This document shows positions 7,081-38,907 of a stretch of 64,000 nt of DNA, one piece after another (within the stretch, counting starts at the first letter, position 1; each line of letters begins with the position of its first letter). The stretch lies in IMG/VR virus record IMGVR_UViG_3300045978_000284, positions 32,001-96,000 of that record; one strand, 5' to 3'. Source of the DNA: a virus. The notes below the pieces were generated by a model. The model had not been told where the DNA came from. It saw only the letters and a program-made list of their open reading frames with translations, and searched no databases. The position numbers and the translations under genes were made by a program.

Positions 7081-7454
7081 GGCCCAACTCCTACTGGCAC
7101 AGTACCGAGCGGACGACGGGGGCGTACACGGTGAAGGCCCTGAAGGACGAGGACGGGATCGTCCTGACGAGCCTCGATACCCTGACCCTCTCGGTGTGGG
7201 ATCTCAAATCGGGCGCGATCATCAACGGGCGCGACCGGCAGGACGTGCTCAACCAGAACGACGTGACGTTCAATGGGGACGGCTCTCTGCTCTGGCGCGT
7301 CCAGGCCGCCGACCGGCCGATCCTGGACGACACGCAGGACTGGGAGGACCACGTCGCCATGTTCGAGTTCACCTATGCGGGCGGGGGGCGAACCGGCCAC
7401 TGGGTGCTCCAGGACCGGATCGACAATCTCCAGAAGGTGCCGGCGACGCCGTGA
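7077..7454 (+). CDS. Small beta-sandwich structural protein (BppU N-terminal-like)
   Basis: LKDEDG...L...LTL...G.L.W.....D pattern, follows the fibre-like gene. Confidence 0.5.
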   Translation: MRPNSYWHSTERTTGAYTVKALKDEDGIVLTSLDTLTLSVWDLKSGAIINGRDRQDVLNQNDVTFNGDGSLLWRVQAADRPILDDTQDWEDHVAMFEFTYAGGGRTGHWVLQDRIDNLQKVPATP

Positions 7455-10400
7455 GCGCGAAGTGGGACGTGGTTCTGGCCGAGCGCCTGCTGGCGGACAA
7501 AGAGCGCTCGGGCATCGAGGCGTTCATGCGCGGCACCGGGCGAAAGCGCGGCGGCGGCGAACAGGGTGGCGGCGGTGGTGACGAGGACGACGGAGACTGC
7601 AAGTGGGTCACCATCCGCGGTAACCCCGTCTGCCTGACGCCGGGTCATGGTGGCCACCGGAAGGGCGAGTCCATCGCGAAGTCCCAGGCGGCCTACTCCG
7701 ATGTACCCACGGGGAAGGGGGGCCGCGTGCGCGCGGTGTCCCGGATCTGGAACCCGACCGCCGAGAACACCTGGCGGGGCTCCGGTGCCGTGACACCGAA
7801 GTGGCCCAAGGGCGTCGAGCCCGGAAGAGTGCTCGACCGCTTCCGCTTCAACACGACGTCGATGTCCGCTTCCGGCCACATCGAGGAGGACGAGAACCAA
7901 CGCAAGCGGGCCGTCATCCACGAGGTGGTCAACGACACGCCGAGCCTCCTGACGTCGCAGGAGCGGCGAAACCAGCCGACCGGATCCTACCCGTCGCGCG
8001 CCGGCGAATCCCGCACCCTGCTCCGCGAGCTGATGGTCAGCCTGCGCGACAAGGGGGTGCGGGAGGCCATCCTGCCCCCCAGGGTGGTCGGGGCGGGCGC
8101 CGAGCCGTGGATGGCGTACCAGTCCACGCGCGGGGACAAGCCGTACCCGCGGAGCTGGCCCGGAATGAGCGTGCAGTTCGGCCGCGCCGAGCCCAGGCCA
8201 GGAGTCGTGGCGGGTCCAGGCCTCGGCGATGCGACGGCGCGCCCGGTTCCGCCCCATCGCATCCTCGATCGCCTCAAGGCCAAGCCGGTCACGGACGCGG
8301 GCGGCAAGATCACGGGCTACCGGGTGAACGTCGAGGAGATGCAGTACCTCTGCGAGATGGCATGGCCCGAGGATCGCGTCCTGGCGGATCCGGAGCGGCG
8401 GCGCGTGGTGGCCGCCTTCGACTTCGACGGCACGCTGGCCCAGTACCAGGGGTGGGGCGACGGGACACCGGGCGATCCGATCCCGGGCATGCGCGAGGTC
8501 ATCGACCAGCTGCAGGCCGCCGGCGCCGAGGTCCTGATCTTCTCGACGCGGGATGCCGACCAGATCCGGGCCTGGCTCACGAAGCACGAGTGGCCGGCCC
8601 TGGAGGTGACGAACAAGAAGCACCCGCGGATCACGGTGTACATCGACGACCGGGCCCTCGAGTACGAGCCCGAGACGCTCGACACCCTGGCCGTCCGGGT
8701 CATGAACTTCCGCCCGTGGTGGCAGACGGTCGACCACCAGCTGGCGGACGAGGACGACGACTGCACCTGGATCACGATCGACGGCCGCCACATCTGCATC
8801 CAGCCCAAGCACGCCTGGCATGACCGGACGCCGCGCGTGAAAGTCAGCCGCGCGCCGCACTGGCGACGTGAGCCGATCGAGGGCAAGCGCATCAGCTGGT
8901 CCCAGCAGGGGAAGATGGGGGAGCGCCTGGCGATCGCGCATCTCAAGCGCCTTGGGTTCCGGGACGCGCGGCCGGCCACGAAGATCTCGAACTTTCCCGT
9001 CGACCTGGTGCACGGGGACACCCTGGTCGAGGTCAAGACGGGGCTCGCCAGCAACACGCAGAAGAGCCAGCACTGGCGGACCACGATCGGCGAGCCCGGC
9101 AAGGCGGAGCGGCGCTGGCTGCGCGAGCTGGACCGGGACAAGAAGCTCCGGTGGAACGCCGAGAAGATGCGCCAGATCCATCTCCGCAAGCAGGCGGTCG
9201 TGAAGGCGCTCTCGCGCGAGCTGGGCCGTCCGATCAAGACGGAGACCGTCGCGCTCATCCTCGACCCGGGCCGGCGCAAGGCCGACGTGTACCGCTTCGA
9301 GGGCTTCCCCAGGCGCGTGGGATGGCGCTCGCCCACGGCCCAGCAGGGCTACGTGACCACCTACGACTACAAGCTGAGCGAGGACCTGTGGGACGTACCG
9401 GCCCCGCCGCTGCGGCCGGACGTCTACGAACTCGCCGAGCCCGAGGCGGAGCCCGCTGATCCGGAGACGGTCGATGACGAGGCCGACGACGACGCGGACT
9501 GGCCGTCCTGGGTGCCGCTGGGCGTGCGCGCCGAGGTCGAGGGTGCGCTGTCGCGCTGGAGCCGCGACGTCGAGAAGGCGATCGCGAAGGAGGACAGCCG
9601 GTCGCTCGCCGAGGAGGACGACGACGAGTGCATCTGGCGCATGATCGGGGGCCACCCGGTCTGCATCCGCGCGAGCCACGCGGAGCACGGCCGCGGCGAG
9701 CGACCGGACCGTGGGGCCCCCCGGGAGACCCGGCGGTTCCGCTCCGAGACCACCCCACGCGCCCCGAAGCCCCCGGCGAAGGGCATCAACCCGGAGCCCT
9801 TGACCACCCGGGTGGCGAGCCCTCGGCTCTTCAGCCCGGTTGCCCGGGCGGTGCCGCTGGGCCATCGCTACGGGGAAAAGCCGTCCGGCGACCCGGAGGG
9901 CCACCTGAACTCGGTGTTCCGCGTGACGCTGGAGAACGGCAACGACGCGGTGTGGAAACCGGCCGCCGGCGAGCACAGCGCGTTCTCCGGCGCCGATCCC
10001 GCCAAGCTGAAAGGATTCACGCAGGACCTCCGGGCGTTCGGCCAGCCAGGCACCTACTGGAAGCGCGAGGTGGCGGCCTCCCGGATCGCCCGGGCGGTGG
10101 GCATGGAGGACCTGGTGCCGTCCACCGACCCGGCCTCGTTCGGCACCGAGCACGGGGCGCTTCAGACGTTCCAGCGCGGGGTGAGCCCCATGACCCTCGG
10201 GCGCGATCTCTACGGCAAGCGGCTCGAGGACGTCGAGCGCGCGGTGCTGTACGACGCGGTCATCGGGAACTTCGACCGCCACTTCGGCAACTGGCTGGTG
10301 GCCCCCACCGGCAAGCTGATCCTGATCGACCATGGCCACGCCTTCCCGCGCACCCAGGTCGTGAAGCACCCGGGGGACCTCCGGGAAGGTCTCCGGGCAG

Positions 10401-10594
10401 GCGGCGAAATGAACCGCGAGATCCCGGAGGCCGTGAAGGAGCCCTGGAAGAAGATCGAGAGCCAGCTCCCGACGCTCCTGCGGGGTCTTTCGTCGGCCAC
10501 CATCAAGACGACGCGGCAGCGGCTCGGCCTCGCCCTCAAGCCAGGCCAGACGTGGATCGGCCTGCGGCGCGACCTGGAGCGGCCGTTCAAGTAG
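7451..10594 (+). CDS. Multidomain head-associated polyprotein: unknown domain, HAD phosphatase, PD-(D/E)xK nuclease, PI3K/HipA-like kinase
   Basis: GTGA overlap start; FDFDGTL...FSTR...YIDDRA; GERLA...PVDL...VEVKT; KP..GE...REVAA...GNFDRHFGNW...IDHGHAF; three DDxCxWxxIxGxx[VI]C tags. Confidence 0.85.
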   Translation: MSAKWDVVLAERLLADKERSGIEAFMRGTGRKRGGGEQGGGGGDEDDGDCKWVTIRGNPVCLTPGHGGHRKGESIAKSQAAYSDVPTGKGGRVRAVSRIWNPTAENTWRGSGAVTPKWPKGVEPGRVLDRFRFNTTSMSASGHIEEDENQRKRAVIHEVVNDTPSLLTSQERRNQPTGSYPSRAGESRTLLRELMVSLRDKGVREAILPPRVVGAGAEPWMAYQSTRGDKPYPRSWPGMSVQFGRAEPRPGVVAGPGLGDATARPVPPHRILDRLKAKPVTDAGGKITGYRVNVEEMQYLCEMAWPEDRVLADPERRRVVAAFDFDGTLAQYQGWGDGTPGDPIPGMREVIDQLQAAGAEVLIFSTRDADQIRAWLTKHEWPALEVTNKKHPRITVYIDDRALEYEPETLDTLAVRVMNFRPWWQTVDHQLADEDDDCTWITIDGRHICIQPKHAWHDRTPRVKVSRAPHWRREPIEGKRISWSQQGKMGERLAIAHLKRLGFRDARPATKISNFPVDLVHGDTLVEVKTGLASNTQKSQHWRTTIGEPGKAERRWLRELDRDKKLRWNAEKMRQIHLRKQAVVKALSRELGRPIKTETVALILDPGRRKADVYRFEGFPRRVGWRSPTAQQGYVTTYDYKLSEDLWDVPAPPLRPDVYELAEPEAEPADPETVDDEADDDADWPSWVPLGVRAEVEGALSRWSRDVEKAIAKEDSRSLAEEDDDECIWRMIGGHPVCIRASHAEHGRGERPDRGAPRETRRFRSETTPRAPKPPAKGINPEPLTTRVASPRLFSPVARAVPLGHRYGEKPSGDPEGHLNSVFRVTLENGNDAVWKPAAGEHSAFSGADPAKLKGFTQDLRAFGQPGTYWKREVAASRIARAVGMEDLVPSTDPASFGTEHGALQTFQRGVSPMTLGRDLYGKRLEDVERAVLYDAVIGNFDRHFGNWLVAPTGKLILIDHGHAFPRTQVVKHPGDLREGLRAGGEMNREIPEAVKEPWKKIESQLPTLLRGLSSATIKTTRQRLGLALKPGQTWIGLRRDLERPFK

Positions 10595-10790
10595 CGCGTC
10601 ACGCGCCCGTCACGGTTCCGGGCTCACTAAGCGATGGGCGGGTAAGGCCGCTGAGCGAGACACCTGCGGACGCGGGCCGGGACGCGCCCACCCCGGCGAT
10701 TCACGCGCAGGACCGCGGCGCCCCGAGGACGGCGCTGGTGGTGTGGTCATGAGCGGCGAGCGCGTGCGGTACGGTCTCGCAGGAGGGAAG

Positions 10791-10820
10791 TTGACGTCAC
10801 GCTAGCCCGCATGCGATAAG
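10791..10820 (+). promoter_or_regulatory. Candidate sigma70-type promoter for the head operon
   Basis: TTGACG, 18 nt, TGn-GATAAG in the largest intergenic gap of the structural region. Confidence 0.4.
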
Positions 10821-10872
10821 GTCAATCAACGCGCTCCCGGCTGTGACCGGGGGCGGCATGGCTGACCCGCAA

Positions 10873-10909
10873 AGGGAGGCCCGACGCGTCGTCGTCGGGC
10901 CTTTCTCTT
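10873..10909 (+). terminator. Intrinsic terminator-like hairpin in leader
   Basis: AGGCCCGACG/CGTCGGGCCT 10-bp stem followed by TTCTCTT. Confidence 0.6.
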
Positions 10910-10929
10910 GTCTGGTCCTGACAACGATT

Positions 10930-11052
10930 CGCACGGCTCGACCCAGCGCCCGGAGTCATGACCCGGGCGCCGGCGAAATGCCGGGACACCGAGGGGCGGT
11001 TTCTGGTGCACCAGCCAGGAACCGCCCTTCTGTGTTCTGGGGCCGGGGTCAG
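10930..11052 (+). ncRNA. Candidate structured leader RNA
   Basis: Stems GCGCCCGG/CCGGGCGC, CCGGC/GCCGG and 16-bp GAGGGGCGGTTTCTGG/CCAGGAACCGCCCTTC. Confidence 0.35.
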
Positions 11053-11065
11053 AGGGAGAGCAGGC

Positions 11066-11746
11066 ATGATCAAGCCGTTCAAGGGACTGGCGCTCTTCGG
11101 TCGCATCCGGACTCGCCGCGGCGAGGTCGCAACGTTCCCGGGCGCGCGCGCCTTCAACATTCTTCGGGTCACGGGCGTCGTGGCGGATCCGGAGACGATC
11201 ACCATCGGCGCCGATGTGTACGAGATCGACCTGGCGGCCGACGGCGTGACGGCCGGACGCATTCAGGTGGTTCCGGCCACGAACTCGGCGGACAACTTCC
11301 TCACGGCGTTCGCGGCCAAGGTCAACCAGAGCGGCCAGGGGATCGCCGGCGCCGGTGTCGAGGCGGTGCGCGCGCTCAAGATCAGCGCCACGGAGGTCGC
11401 CGTCTTCACGGCGACGCCGCGGGTGTCGACCATGGCGCTCGCCGAGAGCATGACGAACGGCGCCTGGGACTCGGCGGCCCTGCGCGGCGGCCTGGCCACC
11501 TCGGAGCGCCGGATGTTCATGGACGCCCGGGTCCCGACGGCCGGCGAGGTGACGGCGGGCACGATGCACTTCGTCCTGGACTTCACGCCGCGCGCGGTGG
11601 GGATCAACGTCGTGGTCACCTCGACGGGGGTCATCAAGGCCTGGGACGGCGGCCGCGTCCTGGCGGCCGGCCTGCTCACCCTCAACAACGCCGGATCCGT
11701 GGACTGGGCCGCCACCGACACGGTCCACGTCCTGGCCATGGAGTAG
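11066..11746 (+). CDS. Putative head fibre/decoration protein
   Basis: GAGGGAG RBS; ETITIG..VYE motif seen in virion proteins. Confidence 0.6.
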   Translation: MIKPFKGLALFGRIRTRRGEVATFPGARAFNILRVTGVVADPETITIGADVYEIDLAADGVTAGRIQVVPATNSADNFLTAFAAKVNQSGQGIAGAGVEAVRALKISATEVAVFTATPRVSTMALAESMTNGAWDSAALRGGLATSERRMFMDARVPTAGEVTAGTMHFVLDFTPRAVGINVVVTSTGVIKAWDGGRVLAAGLLTLNNAGSVDWAATDTVHVLAME

Positions 11747-11754
11747 CCGAGGGC

Positions 11755-12036
11755 GTGAGCGTCGGAGGTCTGGATGCCGCAGAGCTGGCCCGCGAGCTGG
11801 CGCCGCTCAACCCGAGGATCTCGGTGGGCATTCGCCAGGGGGGCGCGGAGGGCAAGGGCAAGCGCATGCCATATGACAAGCTGAGCGGCCTGCCGGACCA
11901 CGTGCGCAAGCGCGGCAAGACGGCCAGCAAGCGCTGGCGGGCGATCTTCAACAGCGTGTTCGCGAAGGACGGCGAGGCGAAGGCCTTCGCGGCGGCCAAC
12001 GCCTCGCTGGATGACCCGCATTCCGGGCACACCTGA
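11755..12036 (+). CDS. ChaB-family protein (alternative start 11866)
   Basis: MPYDKLSGLPDHVRK...WRAIFNSVF...AFAAANA; ChaB commonly sits beside prohead proteases. Confidence 0.75.
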   Translation: MSVGGLDAAELARELAPLNPRISVGIRQGGAEGKGKRMPYDKLSGLPDHVRKRGKTASKRWRAIFNSVFAKDGEAKAFAAANASLDDPHSGHT

Positions 12037-12042
12037 GACCGC

Positions 12043-13806
12043 ATGCTGAGCGACCGGATCGGTCGCGTGATCGAGGGGTACGAGCTCTCAACGTCGCTCT
12101 TCGGGGAGCCGAAGTCGAAGCTCCTGCTCTTCCCGCGCGGCCAGTTCGATCATCCGAAGTACGGCAAGATGACCTTCGACGACGAGTTCTTCGACGAGGT
12201 CGTCGCCAACTACAAGAACAAGGTGCTCGGCCGGACCGAGCCCTACATCGACTTCGACCACCAGAAGGGCCGCGCGGCCGCGTGGATCCGCGAGCTGTCG
12301 GTCGATCCCGATGGCCTGTGGGCCTCGCGCGTCGACTGGACGCCCGCCGGCGAGACGGCGGTGCGCTCGGGCGAGTACCGCTACGTGTCGCCCTGGTGGG
12401 GCTCCGTGTCCGACGCGGCGAACGGCGAGACCTACGATCGCGTGCTGCGCGGGGCCGGGCTCACGAACGTCCCCTATCTGAAGCAGCTTCCGCCGGTGGC
12501 CCAGGACGCGGTCCTTGAGGAGAGCGAGCCGCTGGTCGAGCTGATGCTCAGCGAGTTCCTGCTCGCGGGCAACCCGTACCGGGCGGCCGATGGGACGTTC
12601 ACCGACGCGGCCCACGACGTCGGCGGTGGCGGTGTCGGTGGTGGTGGCGGCAAGGGCGGCGGCGCCGGGCCCGCTGCGGTCAAGGTCTCGCGCAGCGCGG
12701 CCCGGGGCGCCCAGATCGGCTGGGACCTCGGGCGCCTCTTCGGCTCCACGAAGCTCTCCGGGGCAGCGGCGACCGGCATCGGGATCGCGGCCGGTCTCGG
12801 GTCGCTGGCCGCGGCGAATCCGGATGCGGCCATGAAAGTGGCGGGCCTGGCGAAGGCCCTCGGCTCGCGTGTCATGCGTCACGGGCCGGCGATCGCTGGA
12901 ACCGTCCTGGCCGGCGCGGGCATGCTCGGGCTGTCGCGCGTCGGCCGGCCCCCCGCGCCAGGGCGACAGTCACCGGCCGAGCTTGAAGTCGGCGCGGCCA
13001 TGGCGCGGCAGGGCTTGCTCCCGCCCGCGGCTCCCGGTGGCGCTCCCGCGAAGCCAGCGCTGGGAGCTCTGGCGACCGGGAAAATCCAGAACGCCAAGGC
13101 CGTGCTGCGCGAGGTGCTCTCGCGCTATCGCTCGATGCCCCTCAAGCCGGAGGCGCCCGCCGCTCCAGCGGCGCCCGCCGAACCGCCCTACACGTCCTGG
13201 GTCGAGCGGCAGATCGCGTCGGGCGAGAAGGGCTCGCGAGGCACGCGGCGGCTGCGCAAGGGCGGCGGCGTCGGCTACCAGGGCGGCCGCAACGTGCGCC
13301 TCGACGACGTGCTCGCCACGTTCCGGGAGTTCCGCCTGGCGGATGAGGAGGACGACGCCCTGGAGGCCATCGACGTCGATGCCATCCCGGACGATCTCGC
13401 CGAGGCGATCCTGAAGATGCTGCAGGCCTACGTGGAGCGCGAAGAGAAGGCGCTCTCCGAGCGGCTGCATCGCACGCTGACCGGCCAGGCGCTCGCCGAT
13501 GGCGACCCGGAGGACGAGGACGAGGAAGAGGACGAGGACGAGGACGAGGACGAGGATCTCGAGTCCCTGCCGAACCGGGTGCGCGCAGCCTGGAACGCGA
13601 TGTACCCGATGGGCATCTCCATGAACGGCGCGCGCCATCCCTACCTCACCAAGATCTTCGAGGAGCACGTGATCGCGGAGGACGGCGAGCGGCCGAACAC
13701 GTGGTGGCAGATTCCGTGGCGAGAGGTCGGCCCACAGATCGTCTTCGACATGGCGGCCCGCATCCCGGTCCACCAGGTGTGGCTGCCTGCGGGAGCGACC
13801 GCATGA
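12043..13806 (+). CDS. Mu I-like prohead protease fused to tagged cargo and acidic scaffold-like domain
   Basis: PRG.F.HP.YG, IDFDH, AAAWI, VDWTPAG, GEYRYVSP, GAGLTNVPY motifs. Confidence 0.9.
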   Translation: MLSDRIGRVIEGYELSTSLFGEPKSKLLLFPRGQFDHPKYGKMTFDDEFFDEVVANYKNKVLGRTEPYIDFDHQKGRAAAWIRELSVDPDGLWASRVDWTPAGETAVRSGEYRYVSPWWGSVSDAANGETYDRVLRGAGLTNVPYLKQLPPVAQDAVLEESEPLVELMLSEFLLAGNPYRAADGTFTDAAHDVGGGGVGGGGGKGGGAGPAAVKVSRSAARGAQIGWDLGRLFGSTKLSGAAATGIGIAAGLGSLAAANPDAAMKVAGLAKALGSRVMRHGPAIAGTVLAGAGMLGLSRVGRPPAPGRQSPAELEVGAAMARQGLLPPAAPGGAPAKPALGALATGKIQNAKAVLREVLSRYRSMPLKPEAPAAPAAPAEPPYTSWVERQIASGEKGSRGTRRLRKGGGVGYQGGRNVRLDDVLATFREFRLADEEDDALEAIDVDAIPDDLAEAILKMLQAYVEREEKALSERLHRTLTGQALADGDPEDEDEEEDEDEDEDEDLESLPNRVRAAWNAMYPMGISMNGARHPYLTKIFEEHVIAEDGERPNTWWQIPWREVGPQIVFDMAARIPVHQVWLPAGATA

Positions 13807-15719
13807 GCCTCCGGACGACCCTCGCCGAGCACACCCTGGCCAACCCCTACCGGGACGAGGGCGGTCGGTTCACGACAGAGTCACAAGACACGGGTGGACG
13901 CACTGGGGGCGCGGCGAAAGGCGAGGGGCGCCTCGCCAAGACCGCCAAGCGCGTCGCGAAGGCGGCGGGGGCAGCACTGGATCTCCCGGAGGCCGAAACC
14001 CGGACGATCAGCGCCGATAGAGCGGCGGTGGGGAAGGCGATCAAGAGAGGCATCGGGCACGGTGTGGTGACCGGCCTGGTGCTCGGTCGGCGCGCCGGGC
14101 TCGTAACTGGAGCTGCGGAGGCCGTGACGCAGCTCTCCAAAGCGCCGAAGCTCCGGCGCACCGTCGACCGCGCCCTCCGCACAGTCAGTCGGGGCGCCAT
14201 CAACCTGGGGCCCAAGGGTGTCGGCCAGCTGATCAATGGCCTGGTCCTCACGGGAAGCCTCGCGTACTCGGCCTACCAGATCTACAAGGGGCTGCAGTCG
14301 CTGCGGCCCCCCGGGCCGAGTCGTCAGCTGGCCGAACCCGATGTGGCCGATCGGGAGTCGTTCGAGGCTGTGCCGGAGGTGATCTGGAAGGCCCTCCTGT
14401 CGGCCCTCAAGGACTACACCAAGCATGGCGATGGCGATCGCCTGCAGCGGGACCTGGCCGCCATCGCGCCGGCCCAGTCCGAGCTATCGGAGACCCTGCA
14501 GGAGTACGCGCTGGCGAACCCGTACCGAGATCGAGAGGGCAAGTTCACCACCGAGGCCGGCGACACGGGCGGCGGCGGGCGCGGTGCAAAGACCGAGAGG
14601 CCGCGCGCGCGCAAGCGCGGCCTGGGCGGTGAATCGGTATCCGAAAGCCTGAAGGTCGGTGCCGCCACTGGCGCGACGATGGCCGTCGGCAGCGCGTTCG
14701 CCATGCCGCCGTTGCATGCGGTTGGGGCCGGCGGCCTCTCGGGGGTCGGGGCGGCGGCCTGGAATATCGGGAAGAGCCCGAAAGGCCGCGCCGCCGTCGC
14801 CAAGACCGTGCGCACGCTGAGCAACGGTGCCATCAAGATCGGCCCCAAGGCCGTGGGCCGCATCCTGAAAGGCGTTAGCGTGGCGGCCACTCTCGGGGGC
14901 AGCGCCGTGGCCATGCACGCGCTCTACAAGGCGATGGGTGGCGGAGGGGATCTCCTCGGAACCTTCCGCGACGAGCTGGCCAAGCCGGGAGGGCCCCGGG
15001 GCGGCCCGGCCCCGTTCTCCCCCTACGGTGGGAACGTGGTGAAAGAGCCCACCTATACGGGAGGAGGTCGTCCCCCCGATCCACCCGATCCGACCATTCG
15101 CCGACCGGGCGACACGGCGGCGGTCGAGTACCGGGGCAAGACGTTCTATGGGAAGACCGAGGACGACGCCATGAACAAGCTCAGGCGAGCCCAGCTCCCC
15201 GAGCAGGGCGCATTCGTCGGAGACACGTCGACCATCTTCCGCGGAACCTCCGGGAAGCCACTCGCCCCCGGCCTCGGCATCGTCGGCTACCCGAAGACCA
15301 GGGAGGAAGCCGCGGCGCGCACGCAGGCATTCCGGAGCACGGTGTATGGAGGCCAGAAGTTCACATCCAAGTCGAAGCCGATCCCGACGCTCGAGCCGCC
15401 CAAGGCGCGGTTGGGTGGCCTCCTGGGTCCGCCGCGCGTGGACACGCTCGAAGACCTGCTGAAGCGCCCCGGCTTCAAGCTGGCCGAGCCGGACGCGCCG
15501 GACGATCTGCCCGAACCGCTCCTGAAGGCCATGGTGTCGGCCCTCCAGGACTACGCGAAGCACGAGGACGCCGACCGTCTCCGGCGGGATCTCGCGGCGA
15601 TCCAGGCGCGCGTGGACGCGGCCGCGGACCAGACGGAACCCGCACTGTCAGAACCTTCCATCGGCGAGGTCCTGGGCCAGCAGGCCCGGAGAAGCCTGCT
15701 CGCCGCGATCGCCCACTGA
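13803..15719 (+). CDS. Putative internal head polyprotein with two NPYRD-tagged modules
   Basis: ATGA overlap; internal duplication LANPYRDxxGxFTTExxDTGG...RTxSxGAIxxGPK.VG...LAEPD...ALxDYxKH. Confidence 0.75.
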   Translation: MSLRTTLAEHTLANPYRDEGGRFTTESQDTGGRTGGAAKGEGRLAKTAKRVAKAAGAALDLPEAETRTISADRAAVGKAIKRGIGHGVVTGLVLGRRAGLVTGAAEAVTQLSKAPKLRRTVDRALRTVSRGAINLGPKGVGQLINGLVLTGSLAYSAYQIYKGLQSLRPPGPSRQLAEPDVADRESFEAVPEVIWKALLSALKDYTKHGDGDRLQRDLAAIAPAQSELSETLQEYALANPYRDREGKFTTEAGDTGGGGRGAKTERPRARKRGLGGESVSESLKVGAATGATMAVGSAFAMPPLHAVGAGGLSGVGAAAWNIGKSPKGRAAVAKTVRTLSNGAIKIGPKAVGRILKGVSVAATLGGSAVAMHALYKAMGGGGDLLGTFRDELAKPGGPRGGPAPFSPYGGNVVKEPTYTGGGRPPDPPDPTIRRPGDTAAVEYRGKTFYGKTEDDAMNKLRRAQLPEQGAFVGDTSTIFRGTSGKPLAPGLGIVGYPKTREEAAARTQAFRSTVYGGQKFTSKSKPIPTLEPPKARLGGLLGPPRVDTLEDLLKRPGFKLAEPDAPDDLPEPLLKAMVSALQDYAKHEDADRLRRDLAAIQARVDAAADQTEPALSEPSIGEVLGQQARRSLLAAIAH

Positions 15720-15735
15720 GGAGAGGAGGCCAACG

Positions 15736-16509
15736 ATGGGCAAGTTGCTCGTTCAGCTGCGCAAGGATCTCGCCCTCGCCGAGGACGCGACGGTCGTCGA
15801 GGTCATGGACCACATGGGCCGCATGCTCGCGGACGACATGACCGAGGAGGAGAAGAAGAAGGCCGAGGAAGAGGCCGCCGCCGCCAATGCGGCGAAGAGC
15901 GCCGAGGAGGAGGCCAAGAAGGAAGAGGACAAGGAGATGTCGGAGGTGCGCGCGCTGCTCAAGATCGCCAAGCCGAAGCCGGGCGCGATCCTGACGGCGG
16001 TGCGGACTCTCACGACGTCGGCCTCCGACCACGTGCTCTCGGAGACCGCGCTGGGCCGCGAGCTTGCCGAGCTGCGCCTGTCCCACAAGGAGCTGTCAGA
16101 TCAGGTCGAGGAGCTGCGCCCCGCGGCCGCGGAAGCGACGCGCCTGGCGGCCGAGGCGAAGGCCACCAAGAAGGCCACCTTCTTCGATCGCCAGCTCCAC
16201 GAGGGCAAGCTGAAGCCGGCGGAGCGGTCGTTCTATGAGGCCCAGTACGACCTCAACGAGGACGCGGTGGTCAAGTTCTTCGGCGAGCGCAAGCCGGAGA
16301 TCAAGCTCGGCCAGTGGCCGTCGGTCAATCGCCCGGTCGAGGAGCCCGCGGCCGGGGATCCGCGCGAGCGGGTGCTGGCCGAGGCGCAGAAGCTCGCCCT
16401 CGCCGAGAAGATTCCGCTCGACCAGGCCGTGCACCGCGTGACGGCCCAGGACCACGAGCTGGCCGAATCGGTGCGGGGCATGTACGGCCCGGCGGGCGTC
16501 CGCCGGTAA
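15736..16509 (+). CDS. Capsid scaffolding protein
   Basis: Charged coiled-coil, EGKLKPAE motif, position between protease and capsid, strong RBS. Confidence 0.8.
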   Translation: MGKLLVQLRKDLALAEDATVVEVMDHMGRMLADDMTEEEKKKAEEEAAAANAAKSAEEEAKKEEDKEMSEVRALLKIAKPKPGAILTAVRTLTTSASDHVLSETALGRELAELRLSHKELSDQVEELRPAAAEATRLAAEAKATKKATFFDRQLHEGKLKPAERSFYEAQYDLNEDAVVKFFGERKPEIKLGQWPSVNRPVEEPAAGDPRERVLAEAQKLALAEKIPLDQAVHRVTAQDHELAESVRGMYGPAGVRR

Positions 16510-16542: not shown

Positions 16543-16947
16543 ATGACGGCAGGAATGGGCACTCTGGCGAACCCTTCGGTGGGGAACGCCAACGTCGACC
16601 TCAGCGGGTCGGTGTACCGCTTCGTCAAGCGGCTCAGCACGGGGCTCATCGACCTGACGACGGCCGCGGCCGATCTCCCGGTCGGCGTGCTGTTCAACAA
16701 GCCCAAGGCGGGTGAGGCGGTCAACTGCTTCACGGTCGACGGGGGCATCGTCAAGATGATCTGGGACGGGGTGGCGGGCACGCCCCTGGTCCCGGGCGTC
16801 GCGTTGAAGCTCTCGGCGGCCTCGCCGGGCGCGGTGACGCCCACGGTGACGGCCACCGACAAGGTGGTGGCCGTGCTCGAGGACGCCAACGGCGCCACCG
16901 CGGTCGGTCACGTCATCACGGCTCAGCTCAAGGGCGGCACGCTGTAA
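16543..16947 (+). CDS. Capsid decoration/cement protein
   Basis: DLS...YRFVK...VGVL.NKP.AGEA pattern, directly before major capsid. Confidence 0.75.
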   Translation: MTAGMGTLANPSVGNANVDLSGSVYRFVKRLSTGLIDLTTAAADLPVGVLFNKPKAGEAVNCFTVDGGIVKMIWDGVAGTPLVPGVALKLSAASPGAVTPTVTATDKVVAVLEDANGATAVGHVITAQLKGGTL

Positions 16948-17010
16948 CGCCCTCGTGCCGGCGGCCCCCGACGCCGGCACGCACCCAGGGGAGAAAGTTG
17001 AGGCGCACGA

Positions 17011-17952
17011 ATGCCTCCGGCACGGCTCGACCCACGTGATGTGCGTATCGACCCGCTGCTGTCGTCGATCTCGGTGGCGTATGTGAACCGGGCCTACATC
17101 GCCCCGGGGATCGCGCCGGTCATCCCGAGCGACCTCGACGGCGGTCGGTACACGGAGTACAACCAGGCGGACTGGTTCCGGAACGAAGCGTCCAAGCGCG
17201 CGGCCGGCACGCGCTCGCGACGCGGCGAGTACGGGATCACCTTCTCGACCTACTTCTGCGAGGAAGTGGCGTTCTCGCGGGAAATCCCGGACGAGATCCG
17301 GCAGAACGCGATGCAGCCGATCCGTCCCGACACCGACGCCACCAACTACGCCACGGACAAGGTCATGCTGGCGAAGGAGGTGCGGGTCGCCACCAAGATG
17401 CGGACGGCGGCCAACTGGCCCGGCTCGGTGGCCCTGACCGGCACCAACCGCTGGAACGACTACGCGAACAGCGATCCCATCTCTGACGTCGAGGCGGGGA
17501 TCGACCTGATCCACGGCCGCACGGGGTACGACGTCAACACGATGGTCCTGCCCCATCCGGTGTGGAAGAAGCTCAAGCATCACCCGGACATCATCGACCG
17601 CATCAAGTACAGCCAGCGCGGCTTCGTGAACGTGGAGCTGCTGCAGGAGCTGTTCGAGGTCGAGCGGATCATGGTGGCCAAGCCCGTGTACACCCAGAGC
17701 AACGAAGGGCTGGCGGCCGGCGCCGAGACCTACCAGTACGTGTGGGGCAAGGACGTCTGGCTCGGCTACATCACGGGCAATCCGGGCATCCAGGAACCGA
17801 CGGCGATGTACCAGTTCGTGAGCGGCCAGCGGGCCACGCGCACCTGGCGGGAAGAGCCCGAGCACCAGGACGTGGTCGAGGCCTACGAGAAGGTGGACGA
17901 GAAGGTGATCAGCCAGCTGCTGGGCTATCTGATCGCCACCGCGATCGACTAG
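17011..17952 (+). CDS. Major capsid protein
   Basis: IDPLLSSISVAY.N..YIA, W.DYANSDPI.D, L.HHPDI.DRIKY, YVWGKD motifs; 313 aa. Confidence 0.9.
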   Translation: MPPARLDPRDVRIDPLLSSISVAYVNRAYIAPGIAPVIPSDLDGGRYTEYNQADWFRNEASKRAAGTRSRRGEYGITFSTYFCEEVAFSREIPDEIRQNAMQPIRPDTDATNYATDKVMLAKEVRVATKMRTAANWPGSVALTGTNRWNDYANSDPISDVEAGIDLIHGRTGYDVNTMVLPHPVWKKLKHHPDIIDRIKYSQRGFVNVELLQELFEVERIMVAKPVYTQSNEGLAAGAETYQYVWGKDVWLGYITGNPGIQEPTAMYQFVSGQRATRTWREEPEHQDVVEAYEKVDEKVISQLLGYLIATAID

Positions 17953-38180: not shown

Positions 38181-38791
38181 TCCCCGCGGCGGAGGCCGCG
38201 GTGGTGGCCCGGCTCCTGCTGCGCGGGTCGGCGCTGGACGCCTACGCGGCCCACGCGAGCGGCTGGCTCGCGGATCGGCTGCCGGCCTTCGAGGCGGAAC
38301 TGCGGTCCAACCAGGAGGACGAGCGCCGCCATGCAGCCATCCAGGCCGAGCTGGCGGTCAGGCTCGACCCGGAGTGCCGCCCGGACGGTCAGGCCAGGCT
38401 TCTATTCGCCTCGTGGCGGGCCTGGGAGGCTCCAGGACGGCTCCTGATGCTGCACCTGGTTGAACGCATCGCCATGCTCTCGTTCGAGGTCCTGGGGCGG
38501 CGCCTGCGCCAGCTGGGGGCGCTGGACGAGGCACTCGCGGTCCTCGACATCGCCCGGGACGAGCGTCGGCACGTGCGGACCGGGCGGGACGCCCTCCTGG
38601 CAATCGGGCCGGTCCCCGCGGCCGCCGGCGTGTACCAGGCCATCCGGTCGGTGTACGCGGCGGATCCGCTCCTGGAGGTGGAGGCTCCGCGGGTCCTGGG
38701 AATCGGCCGGCTCACGGAGCTGGGTGACAGGGTGTGGGCCCGGTGGCAGAATGCTCGCGCGGGGAGTCTGGGAGACCACGGTGGCCCATAA
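38177..38791 (+). CDS. Ferritin-like di-iron protein
   Basis: EDERRH...VER...RDERRH paired ExxH motifs. Confidence 0.8.
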   Translation: MIPAAEAAVVARLLLRGSALDAYAAHASGWLADRLPAFEAELRSNQEDERRHAAIQAELAVRLDPECRPDGQARLLFASWRAWEAPGRLLMLHLVERIAMLSFEVLGRRLRQLGALDEALAVLDIARDERRHVRTGRDALLAIGPVPAAAGVYQAIRSVYAADPLLEVEAPRVLGIGRLTELGDRVWARWQNARAGSLGDHGGP

Positions 38792-38829
38792 CCATCGAGA
38801 AGCGGGTTCGACTCCCGCCCCCGTAACCA
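38758..38829 (+). tRNA. tRNA-Met(CAT), initiator-like, atypical
   Basis: Acceptor CGCGGGG/CCCCGTA with C1:A72 mismatch, T-arm GCGGG-TTCGACT-CCCGC, loop CC-CAT-AA, encoded CCA; short D-arm. Confidence 0.8.
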
Positions 38830-38832
38830 GCT

Positions 38833-38907
38833 CGGGGCGTGGCGCAGAGGGAGCGCGCCTGGCCTGGGACCAGGAGGTCGCCGGTTCGAGTCCGGCCGCC
38901 CCGACCA
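38833..38907 (+). tRNA. tRNA-Pro(TGG)
   Basis: Acceptor CGGGGCG/CGCCCCG, anticodon arm CCTGG-CCTGGGA-CCAGG, T-arm GCCGG-TTCGAGT-CCGGC, ACCA end. Confidence 0.9.

What the first reader, a model, noticed from the sequence alone, without database searches (positions are those of the whole stretch)
7451..16509. Candidate capsid-loading system: tagged polyproteins cut at L[AS][DE] by the prohead protease
Seen: L[AS][DE] occurs 7 times in 7451..10594, 6 in the protease ORF, 5 in 13803..15719 and 8 in the scaffold (26 in about 2530 aa, counted by eye). It is absent from the major capsid and decoration proteins, and I count about 5 in the 1909-aa tape measure. In the three polyproteins the sites lie at termini, domain junctions and acidic spacers (for example LAD 8381 before the HAD, LAD 8741, LSE 9374, LAE 9431, LAE 9605), not inside enzyme or basic cargo domains. 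Known: prohead proteases cut scaffolds and internal proteins at short motifs (T4 gp21), and Mu I is a protease-scaffold protein. Inference: these genes encode precursors that enter the prohead and are cut into separate effectors ejected with the DNA, following a grammar of site, tag, cargo, site, spacer.
Basis: partly seen in the sequence, partly recalled or inferred. Interest (0 to 1): 0.9.

Follow-up and report, generated by a model that had tools for sequence, protein, structure and literature searches.

The report
Phage head cargo with protease-site junctions
In this uncultured 108-kb phage, the three-residue signal Leu-Ala/Ser-Glu/Asp crowds the capsid scaffold and also sits at the module borders of three large neighbouring proteins. 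The phage's own head protease therefore probably cuts these proteins into separate enzymes and basic peptides inside the capsid, but no cut has been measured.

Summary
L[AS][DE] occurs 7, 6, 5 and 8 times in the four ORFs, against about 1.4, 1.4, 1.2 and 1.05 expected. It is absent from the capsid and decoration proteins and occurs 5 times (4.1 expected) in the tape measure. Of 115 ORFs in the genome, only these four adjacent ones reach P<0.01.

The strongest new evidence is independent. Distant relatives with 30% GC genomes carry 4-9 L[AS]E in their single protease-scaffold gene, against 0.5-0.9 expected. One LSE column is conserved right after the protease domain, and two window scaffold sites match relatives' LSE columns.

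In the cargo proteins most sites lie at module borders. The predicted pieces alternate between basic cargo and acidic spacers.

The "tags" are real. One is a Cys-Trp-Cys-His-His hairpin found in MuF-type polyvalent proteins of many phages. The other is an NPYR..G.F motif.

Cleavage, packaging and ejection remain inferred. The L-x-E before the Cys-Trp tag also occurs in a phage with a different head module, so some sites may belong to the tag itself.

This scan has reported the same theme, with other motifs, on many other genomes. I class it as a new variant of a known kind (T4 and phiKZ internal-protein processing; polyvalent proteins).

The parts
7451..10594 (+). P0001, a 1047-aa polyvalent cargo protein. 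Order: N-peptide, tag 1, unknown basic domain, LAD311, HAD phosphatase, LAD431, tag 2, PD-(D/E)xK-like nuclease, LSE642, acidic spacer (LAE661), LAE719, tag 3, PI3/4-kinase-like domain.
   Evidence: Translation. Pfam PI3_PI4_kinase 36 bits, and PHROG HAD-like hit at aa 305-405. Site list. Fragment charges.
7580..7675 (+). Cys-Trp tag copy 1 (acidic run, then C-x-W-x2-I-x-G-x3-C-x4-H-x2-H). This is the only copy without an L[AS][DE] directly before it.
   Evidence: Alignment A2 has invariant D, C, W, I, G, C, H, H. Six-frame scan.
8741..8836 (+). LAD431, acidic run and Cys-Trp tag copy 2, heading the nuclease-like domain.
8861..9370 (+). PD-(D/E)xK-like (YraN-like) nuclease domain, aa 471-640. 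LSE642 follows 2 residues after its end.
   Evidence: BLASTP gives 36-40% identity to the C-terminal domain of P0010 and P0009. The P0010 alignment ends at that protein's last residue.
9383..9613 (+). Acidic spacer, aa 645-721 (two fragments of pI 4.1), bounded by LSE642, LAE661 and LAE719.
9605..9700 (+). LAE719, acidic run and Cys-Trp tag copy 3, heading the kinase-like domain. It closely resembles the tag in the portal fusion, which lies outside the window.
11866..12036 (+). Small ChaB-like ORF (56 aa). In relatives this domain is fused to the N-terminus of the protease and separated from it by LSE or LSD.
   Evidence: Alignment. ORF found. Weak Pfam ChaB hit, E=0.007.
12043..12555 (+). Mu-I-type prohead protease domain, aa 1-171, ending at LSE169-171.
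   Evidence: Pfam Mu-like_Pro 65 bits against a cut-off of 25.2, and phrog_328. H73 and S116 are invariant in A4. The AlphaFold model has pLDDT 74-95 for about aa 20-147, its last strand ends at aa 141, and LSE169 lies in the low-confidence tail. The weak top Foldseek hits are herpesvirus proteases and T4 gp21.
12556..13500 (+). Module 1, fused behind the protease: NPYR..G.F tag, Gly run, basic Gly/Ala-rich hydrophobic segment (+17, pI 11.1), LAD432, acidic helix, LAD484.
   Evidence: Alignment A1. Fragments.
13558..13803 (+). C-terminal domain of the protease ORF, aa 506-587, preceded by a poly-acidic run. In the nearest relative, P0006, the matching domain follows LSE directly.
13803..14492 (+). 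Module 2 (P0004 aa 1-230): LAE7, NPYR tag, basic hydrophobic segment (+15, pI 11.0), LAE176-PD acidic helix, LSE228.
14493..15716 (+). Module 3 (P0004 aa 231-638): NPYR tag, basic segment with an extra domain (+21, pI 10.2), LAE560-PD acidic helix, LSE615, 21-aa tail.
15736..16509 (+). Scaffold protein with 8 L[AS][DE] sites. It is homologous to the scaffold half of relatives' protease-scaffold fusions. LAE14 and LSD120 match relatives' LSE columns.
16543..17952 (+). Decoration protein (16543-16947) and major capsid protein (17011-17952). Both have no sites and serve as internal negative controls.
   Evidence: phrog_1005 E=1.7e-86. Counts.

Best explanation
**Proposed mechanism.** L-[A/S]-[E/D] is the recognition site of this phage's Mu-I-type (assemblin-fold) prohead protease. 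The cut is probably after the acidic residue. The protease degrades the scaffold at its eight sites and frees itself at LSE169. It also cuts three cargo carriers at module borders:
- the 1047-aa polyvalent enzyme protein;
- the 420-aa extension of its own gene;
- the 638-aa repeat protein.

It probably also cuts the portal-cargo-MuF fusion that lies just upstream of the window.

**Expected products.** Cutting would release basic pieces that stay with the DNA: enzymes headed by a Cys-Trp-Cys-His-His hairpin tag, and Gly/Ala-rich basic peptides headed by an NPYR..G.F tag. It would also release short acidic spacers that neutralise the precursors and then leave the capsid or are degraded.

**Shown versus inferred.** Shown here: motif enrichment, conservation in relatives, placement at module borders, the alternation of charge, and fusion of cargo to the portal, MuF and protease. 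Inferred: the cut itself, entry into the prohead, and ejection into the host.
For: 1. Enrichment is 5-fold in four adjacent ORFs only, out of 115.
2. There is independent replication in 30%-GC relatives that share the capsid (about 40% identity) and the protease (30-36% identity). Their protease-scaffold ORF has 4-9 L[AS]E against 0.5-0.9 expected, while their other ORFs are at expectation. In 8 pooled relatives LSE is the top tripeptide, 39 against 2.15.
3. An LSE column is conserved directly after the protease domain and another before it. P0006, whose protease domain is 59% identical, keeps LSE at the same place with different cargo behind it.
4. Two window scaffold sites are positionally conserved with relatives.
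5. Sites at the module start and the spacer start are invariant across three paralogous modules of about 30% identity.
6. LSE642 lies 2 residues after the end of a domain that ends the protein in P0010.
7. LSE169 lies outside the confidently folded protease core.
8. Sites coincide with charge boundaries, pooled P=0.001.
9. The same tags occur in the portal-2H-MuF fusion and in MuF-bearing polyvalent proteins of other phages. This links the cargo to head-internal proteins.
10. Published precedent exists: prohead proteases of T4 and the phiKZ/SPN3US group cut internal and ejection proteins, the scaffold and themselves after Glu-ending motifs (PMC10052503, PMC5694885).
Against: - No protein data exist for this uncultured virus.
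- The recruitment route for P0001 and P0004 is unknown, because neither is fused to the portal, the scaffold or the protease domain.
- LAE452 and LSE471 lie in a predicted helix and are not conserved in the paralogous modules.
- The extension of P0006 has no site beyond the junction LSE.
- More distant PF10123 proteases vary. FP_Mushu has 5 against 0.95, Mx4 has 2 against 1.07, and Thermus Riverbug has 0 against 1.06. The motif is therefore specific to a clade.
- L-x-E-A plus an acidic run precedes the Cys-Trp tag in many other phages. One of them, L031, has a different head module and shows no overall enrichment (6 against 4.7).
- Burial of the P0001 sites could not be assessed.
Confidence: 0.6

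Rival explanations
1. The motif is a true protease site only in the scaffold and at the protease junction. In P0001, P0004 and the portal fusion, the L-A-E/D triplets are conserved parts of the tags and linkers (for example a helix cap or acidic lead-in of the Cys-Trp hairpin). The cargo proteins would then be packaged whole, or cut at only a few places.
For: L-x-E-A plus an acidic run precedes Cys-Trp tags in many unrelated polyvalent proteins, with a variable middle residue. The L031 phage has such tags but a different head module and no overall enrichment. The relatives' MuF and portal proteins carry no excess sites.
Against: Sites also occur where there is no tag: LAD311 before the HAD domain, LSE642 after the nuclease, LAEP[DE] at the spacer starts, and LSE615. 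In this phage the middle residue is restricted to A or S, exactly as in its scaffold. The sites track charge boundaries.
Confidence: 0.2
2. L-[AS]-[ED] is a docking motif that binds the capsid interior or a protease exosite, like a cargo-loading peptide, rather than the scissile site. Its repetition gives avidity for loading.
For: Repetition in the scaffold and at the head of each cargo module would also suit a binding motif. The recruitment signal for P0001 and P0004 is otherwise unidentified.
Against: The motif is conserved exactly at the protease/scaffold domain junction, where self-release is expected. Assemblin-fold phage proteases are known to cut after Glu-ending tripeptides (PMC10052503). 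The motif lies in acidic, low-confidence linkers rather than forming a defined helix.
Confidence: 0.1
3. The large proteins are late-expressed cytoplasmic enzymes or membrane proteins that are not packaged. The motif excess reflects shared linker style and internal duplication.
For: There is no direct evidence of packaging. P0004 has no homologue anywhere. Several sites are paralogous copies.
Against: The genes sit between the portal-MuF gene and the capsid gene. One module is fused to the protease itself. The same tag sits in the portal fusion and in MuF proteins. Enrichment survives the Markov control and is unique to these ORFs in the genome. The DNA copies are only about 70% identical, so the motifs have been kept through divergence.
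Confidence: 0.08
4. The excess is chance or a compositional artefact of a motif chosen after the fact.
For: The motif was picked by eye. LAE is a common helix tripeptide.
Against: LAE and LSE are the top non-low-complexity tripeptides in an unbiased ranking. The helical tape measure shows no excess. The pattern is replicated independently in 30%-GC relatives, with P about 6e-35 when pooled.
Confidence: 0.02

Closest known systems
T4 head maturation: gp21 protease, capsid-targeting sequences, internal proteins IPI-III and Alt
   Same: An assemblin-fold prohead protease cuts the scaffold, itself and packaged cargo after a short Glu-ending motif. I recall the T4 motif as L/I-x-E from my own knowledge; I did not retrieve it. 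The cargo is basic and diverse, carries a short shared targeting sequence, and includes anti-defence proteins (PMC3012670, PMC5694885).
   Different: Here the protease is a Mu-I type (PF10123) in a siphophage-like genome with a lambda-E-like capsid protein. The cargo is strung into polyproteins with several internal sites, and acidic spacers separate the pieces. The conserved tags follow the site rather than precede it, so they would stay on the mature cargo. There is no sequence similarity to the T4 targeting sequence.
phiKZ and SPN3US giant-phage prohead proteases (gp175, gp245)
   Same: Mass spectrometry has shown cleavage after A/S/G-x-E in ejection proteins, the portal and the protease itself, with multiple cuts inside propeptides (PMC10052503, PMC5694885).
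   Different: Those substrates lose long N-terminal propeptides and are not multi-enzyme polyproteins. The motif has a different register (small-x-E rather than L-small-E). The protease family is different.
Phage polyvalent proteins and portal- or MuF-fused effectors (Iyer et al. 2017, PMC5512222)
   Same: Multi-enzyme proteins encoded next to virion genes. 2H phosphoesterase fused to portal or MuF is described there. The domain repertoire is similar (kinase, nuclease, phosphatase). They are predicted to be packaged and delivered.
   Different: That work proposes processing by zincin-like metallopeptidase domains inside the proteins. No such domain is found in P0001, and the junction motif instead matches the phage's own head protease and scaffold. 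I did not find the Cys-Trp tag or the NPYR/HPR tag in term searches of that paper.
Mu I/Z nested protease-scaffold gene (PF10123)
   Same: The N-terminal protease domain is homologous and has the same position in the head module. Relatives keep the single protease-scaffold ORF.
   Different: In this phage the gene is split. About 1,060 residues (three NPYR modules and a small C-terminal domain) lie between the protease domain and a separately encoded scaffold. The ChaB-like N-domain is also a separate ORF.

Membership tests
Mu-like prophage I protease (Pfam PF10123, assemblin-fold prohead protease) | Significant match to the family profile over the protease core | tested here: met
   PF10123 65 bits against a cut-off of 25.2, over aa 29-163. 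phrog_328 E=5.8e-19.
Mu-like prophage I protease (Pfam PF10123, assemblin-fold prohead protease) | Conserved catalytic His and Ser | tested here: met
   H73 and S116 (also H37 and D70) are invariant in 15 sequences of 22-38% identity. Assigning them as the catalytic pair is inference from the family, not an assay.
Mu-like prophage I protease (Pfam PF10123, assemblin-fold prohead protease) | Assemblin / T4 gp21-like fold | tested here: inconclusive
   The core is modelled at pLDDT 74-95. The top Foldseek hits are herpesvirus proteases and T4 gp21, but only at E=0.04-0.2.
Mu-like prophage I protease (Pfam PF10123, assemblin-fold prohead protease) | Scaffold domain in the same ORF (I/Z arrangement) | tested here: not met
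   The scaffold is a separate ORF (15736-16509), 1.9 kb downstream. Relatives do have the fusion.
Phage polyvalent proteins (Iyer et al. 2017) | Two or more unrelated effector domains in one polypeptide, encoded beside virion genes | tested here: met
   HAD, PD-(D/E)xK-like and PI3/4-kinase-like domains in P0001. The gene lies between the portal-MuF gene and the capsid gene.
Phage polyvalent proteins (Iyer et al. 2017) | Link to MuF or portal head proteins | tested here: met
   The same Cys-Trp tag occurs in the Portal_Mu-2H-MuF fusion of this genome and in MuF-bearing giant proteins P0011 and P0013.
Phage polyvalent proteins (Iyer et al. 2017) | Zincin-like metallopeptidase hub domain proposed to do the processing | tested here: not met
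   No peptidase domain was found by Pfam or PHROGs in P0001 or P0004.
Prohead-protease-processed internal cargo (T4 IP / phiKZ type) | Cargo shares the cleavage motif used in the phage's own scaffold and protease | tested here: met
   L[AS][DE] is enriched in the scaffold, the protease ORF and both cargo ORFs only. The middle-position restriction is the same in all of them.
Prohead-protease-processed internal cargo (T4 IP / phiKZ type) | Cargo present in virions and cut at the motif | not testable with these tools
   This is an uncultured IMG/VR record. No proteomic data exist.

The most novel reading that the evidence does not exclude
The unit made of a cut site, a short tag and a cargo is a portable loading grammar shared across many phage lineages. 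The Cys-Trp-Cys-His-His hairpin is found in 32 representative clusters, up to 7-14 copies per protein. It and the NPYR/HPR..G.F motif would be general, undescribed capsid-retention or delivery tags that stay on the mature cargo. Each phage would tune the tripeptide in front of the tag to its own head protease. Acidic spacers would act as removable charge-neutralising pro-pieces for basic, possibly membrane- or DNA-active peptides.
Probability: 0.3. Interest if true: 0.8.

Novelty: new variant of a known kind. Interest (0 to 1): 0.6.

Why it matters
If this reading is right, three things follow.

1. It gives a cleavage code for a Mu-I-type head protease that can be read from sequence. I found no published specificity for this protease type.
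2. It links two bodies of work that have been treated separately: head-protease processing of internal proteins (T4, phiKZ) and polyvalent effector proteins.
3. It would let the mature, injected enzyme set of uncultured phages be predicted from sequence. Here that set is a phosphatase, a nuclease-like protein, a kinase-like protein and a 2H phosphoesterase, which are plausible early anti-defence tools.

It also points to short tags and acidic spacers that could be tested as parts for loading foreign proteins into capsids, as was done with the T4 targeting sequence.

Tried and rejected
The genomic contexts of P0006, P0007, P0009, P0010 and most tag-bearing proteins could therefore not be fetched. 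This blocked the test of whether the pre-tag tripeptide co-varies with each phage's protease.

**Searches for close relatives**
- The scaffold found nothing in viral contigs.
- P0004 found nothing.
- P0001 found nothing in viral contigs, and only two partial homologues among 5.8 billion proteins.
- The protease found 2 relatives.
- Genome contigs found nothing, and metagenome contigs gave only a 1.1-kb fragment.
- P0020 found nothing.
- Megablast against known phages found no match.

**Structure and distant-homology attempts**
- AlphaFold on P0001 without an alignment was unusable (pLDDT 36.9), so burial of its sites was not tested.
- The ESM Atlas gave no usable hit for the P0004 module.
- A PDB sequence search with P0001 gave only marginal kinase hits.

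**Ideas rejected**
- I considered that each module ends with a copy of the scaffold N-terminus. BLASTP shows no significant similarity.
- I considered recent cassette shuffling by exact DNA repeats. The repeats are only about 70% identical.
- I considered that L[AS]E is general to PF10123. Mx4 and Thermus Riverbug show no excess.
- Open reading frames extend upstream of the P0004 and scaffold starts, which could hint at frameshift fusions. I judged this uninformative in a 70%-GC genome.

Full report
**Setting.** The window is bases 32001-96000 of a 108,431-bp IMG/VR virus record, estimated 96% complete. It has about 70% GC, and nearly all genes are on the + strand. Megablast finds no known phage.

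The head module starts upstream of the window and reads as follows.
- A large terminase carrying a LAGLIDADG insert.
- A 1257-aa fusion of Portal_Mu, a 2H phosphoesterase and MuF (genome 27222-30995).
- About 7 kb of small genes, most without family hits.
- P0001 (7451-10594).
- An unknown gene (10958-11746, phrog_18828).
- A 56-aa ChaB-like ORF (11866-12036).
- The protease ORF (12043-13806).
- P0004 (13803-15719).
- The scaffold (15736-16509).
- The decoration protein and the lambda-E-like capsid protein (phrog_1005, E=1.7e-86).

**Check of the observation.** Shuffle P values run from 4e-4 to below 2e-4. The capsid, the decoration protein and the 462-aa protein have none. The tape measure has 5 against 4.1 expected.

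The excess survives three further controls.
- A first-order Markov expectation is conservative here, because the motif feeds its own dipeptide counts. It still gives 26 against 10.5 (P=4e-5).
- In a ranking of all tripeptides in the four proteins, LAE and LSE are the best entries that are not low-complexity. Enrichment is confined to L at the first position and A or S at the second, with E preferred over D at the third.
- Among 115 ORFs of the whole genome, only these four adjacent ORFs reach P<0.01.

**Independent replication.** The capsid protein retrieved 24 viral contigs with about 40% identical capsids, all from genomes of about 30% GC. In 19 of them a single protease-scaffold ORF of 376-445 aa was found, and where the flanks are held the decoration and capsid genes follow it. 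This is the Mu I arrangement.

These ORFs hold 4-9 L[AS]E each, against 0.5-0.9 expected. In the five loci where all other ORFs were tabulated, those ORFs sit near expectation. Pooling eight non-redundant relatives, LSE is by far the most enriched tripeptide: 39 against 2.15, P about 6e-35, which is inflated by shared ancestry.

The alignment shows one LSE column conserved right after the protease core (PVmLSE). A second LSE or LSD column lies between an N-terminal ChaB-like domain and the protease. The window protein and its closest relative P0006 (protease domain 59% identical) both have LSE at the post-protease position. The window scaffold aligns with the scaffold half of the relatives, and its LAE14 and LSD120 fall on relatives' LSE columns.

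More distant PF10123 proteins vary: FP_Mushu has 5 against 0.95, Mx4 has 2 against 1.07, and Thermus Riverbug has 0 against 1.06. The motif is therefore a trait of this clade and not of the whole family.

**The protease.**
- Residues 29-163 match Mu-like_Pro at 65 bits.
- H73 and S116 are invariant across 15 sequences.
- With that alignment, AlphaFold models residues 20-147 or so at pLDDT 74-95. The last strand ends at residue 141 and confidence collapses after 148, so LSE169 lies outside the folded core.
- The top Foldseek hits are herpesvirus proteases and T4 gp21, but they are weak (E=0.04-0.2).

**How this phage differs from its relatives.** The ancestral protease-scaffold gene is split. 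About 1,060 residues lie between the protease domain and the separately encoded scaffold. They form three paralogous modules of about 30% identity (A1), one fused to the protease and two in P0004.

Each module has four parts, in this order:
1. L[AS]E, then 2-5 residues, then LA(G)NPYR..G.FT..D.GG;
2. a basic, Gly/Ala-rich, moderately hydrophobic segment;
3. LAEP[DE] or LADEEDD, opening an acidic stretch;
4. a helix of the form LL.AL.DY.KH.D.DRL.RDLAAI.

The L and E at the module start, and the L-A...E at the spacer start, are among the invariant columns. The DNA copies are only about 70% identical, so these are old duplications that have kept the motif. P0004 has no detectable homologue.

**P0001 and the portal fusion.** P0001 carries three copies of a second tag: an acidic run followed by C-x-W-x2-I-x-G-x3-C-x4-H-x2-H. 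The portal fusion carries a fourth copy (A2). Three of the four copies are directly preceded by LAD or LAE.

The other P0001 sites are placed as follows.
- LAD311 lies about 10 residues before the HAD DxD motif.
- LSE642 lies two residues after the end of a PD-(D/E)xK-like domain. The homologous domain of P0010 ends that protein.
- LAE661 lies inside an acidic spacer.
- LAE9 and LAD14 lie in the N-terminal peptide.

In the portal fusion, LAE570 precedes the tag, LAE794 precedes the 2H domain, and LAE1096 precedes MuF.

**Predicted fragments.** Cutting after every site gives large basic fragments and short acidic ones.
- Basic fragments: P0001 17-313 (+10), 434-644 (+18) and 722-1047 (+10); protease ORF 172-434 (+17); P0004 10-178 (+15) and 231-562 (+21).
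- Acidic fragments have pI 4.1-4.9.
- The HAD and protease pieces are also acidic.
- The sites mark charge boundaries better than random cuts placed after D or E (pooled P=0.001).

**The tags elsewhere.** A profile of the Cys-Trp tag, searched against 1.84 billion representative proteins, finds 32 proteins at E<=1e-3. Many are giant and hold 2-14 copies. P0011 and P0013 carry MuF domains, P0017 and P0019 carry a zincin-like domain, and P0018 carries a zeta-toxin kinase. These are polyvalent proteins in the sense of Iyer et al. 2017 (PMC5512222). That paper describes 2H-portal and 2H-MuF fusions and proposes processing by zincin peptidases. Variants of the tag without cysteines also exist (G.WVTI.G.HV[FY]I).

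In front of the tags there is usually an acidic run, and often L-x-E-A, very often LAE. P0010 has a DUF2213 domain at its N-terminus, which I recall from my own knowledge (untested here) as protease-like. It separates its modules with E.QHPR..G.F..GGG, a variant of the NPYR tag.

One context could be fetched. L031, a 69%-GC phage with a P0011-like protein, has a different head module. Its polyvalent protein shows no overall L[AS][DE] excess (6 against 4.7), although LAE precedes several of its tags. This limits how far the pre-tag triplets can be read as sites specific to the Mu-I-type protease.

**Interpretation.** The most economical reading is that L-[AS]-[ED] is the cleavage motif of this protease clade. 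The scaffold would be degraded at it, the protease would free itself at LSE169, and the cargo carriers would be cut at module borders. This works like T4 (gp21, targeting sequences, basic internal proteins) and like phiKZ and SPN3US (A/S/G-x-E sites shown by mass spectrometry; PMC10052503, PMC5694885).

The differences are the protease family, the polyprotein layout, the acidic spacers, and tags that would remain on the mature cargo. Packaging is supported only indirectly: by gene position, by fusion of one module to the protease, and by the shared tag in the portal-MuF fusion and in MuF proteins. How P0001 and P0004 enter the prohead is unknown.

LAE452 and LSE471 lie in a predicted helix and are not conserved among the paralogous modules. 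Not every occurrence need therefore be a functional site.

**Relation to earlier notes of this scan.** First-reader notes on this same genome describe the same tags, modules and portal fusion. I checked those features myself. The scan has also reported the same theme on many other genomes: head-protease motifs at the borders of cargo polyproteins, with other motifs, and an HPR..G.F tag. I did not test those reports.

**Verdict.** It is a new variant of a known kind, of moderate to high interest, and it can be tested directly by co-expression and mass spectrometry.

Noticed in passing
outside the window: genome 27222-30995 (L026:8223-11996): A 1257-aa single-chain fusion. Its parts are a Portal_Mu core, a Gly/Pro linker, LAE plus a Cys-Trp tag, an unknown basic domain, a 2H phosphoesterase with two H-V-T-L motifs, and MuF. 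It would place 12 copies of the cargo at the portal vertex.
   Followed up: partly
outside the window: genome 19283-21934 (L026:284-2935): The large terminase (883 aa) is interrupted by a LAGLIDADG homing-endonuclease or intein-like insert (Pfam LAGLIDADG_2, aa 405-561). It has 5 L[AS][DE] against 1.3 expected, which I judge to be chance among 115 ORFs.
   Followed up: no
window 11866-12036: An unannotated 56-aa ChaB-like ORF lies directly upstream of the protease. In 30%-GC relatives the same domain forms the N-terminus of the protease-scaffold protein and is separated from the protease by LSE or LSD.
   Followed up: partly
P0010 and P0006 (proteins from the database searches): Two other cases of a protease followed by cargo. 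P0010 has an N-terminal DUF2213 domain followed by ParB-like, NUDIX, kinase-like and nuclease-like modules, separated by E.QHPR..G.F..GGG tags. P0006 has this protease clade followed by a small domain and two C-x2-C-x8-H-x3-C knuckles.
   Followed up: partly
P0015 (698 aa): A protein made of 14 identical 51-residue repeats, each containing NCTWVTLGESPEC. This is a degenerate form of the Cys-Trp tag, or possibly an assembly artefact.
   Followed up: no
window 38756-38907: Adjacent tRNA-Met(CAT) and tRNA-Pro(TGG) genes lie in the phage genome.
   Followed up: no
window 13558-13803 and P0006 aa ~175-260: A small conserved domain (R.R.A[WF]... then a beta-rich stretch ending V..[VA]W[VL]) follows the protease in both phages. 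It has no Pfam or PHROG hit and is a candidate for the element that anchors the protease in the prohead.
   Followed up: no
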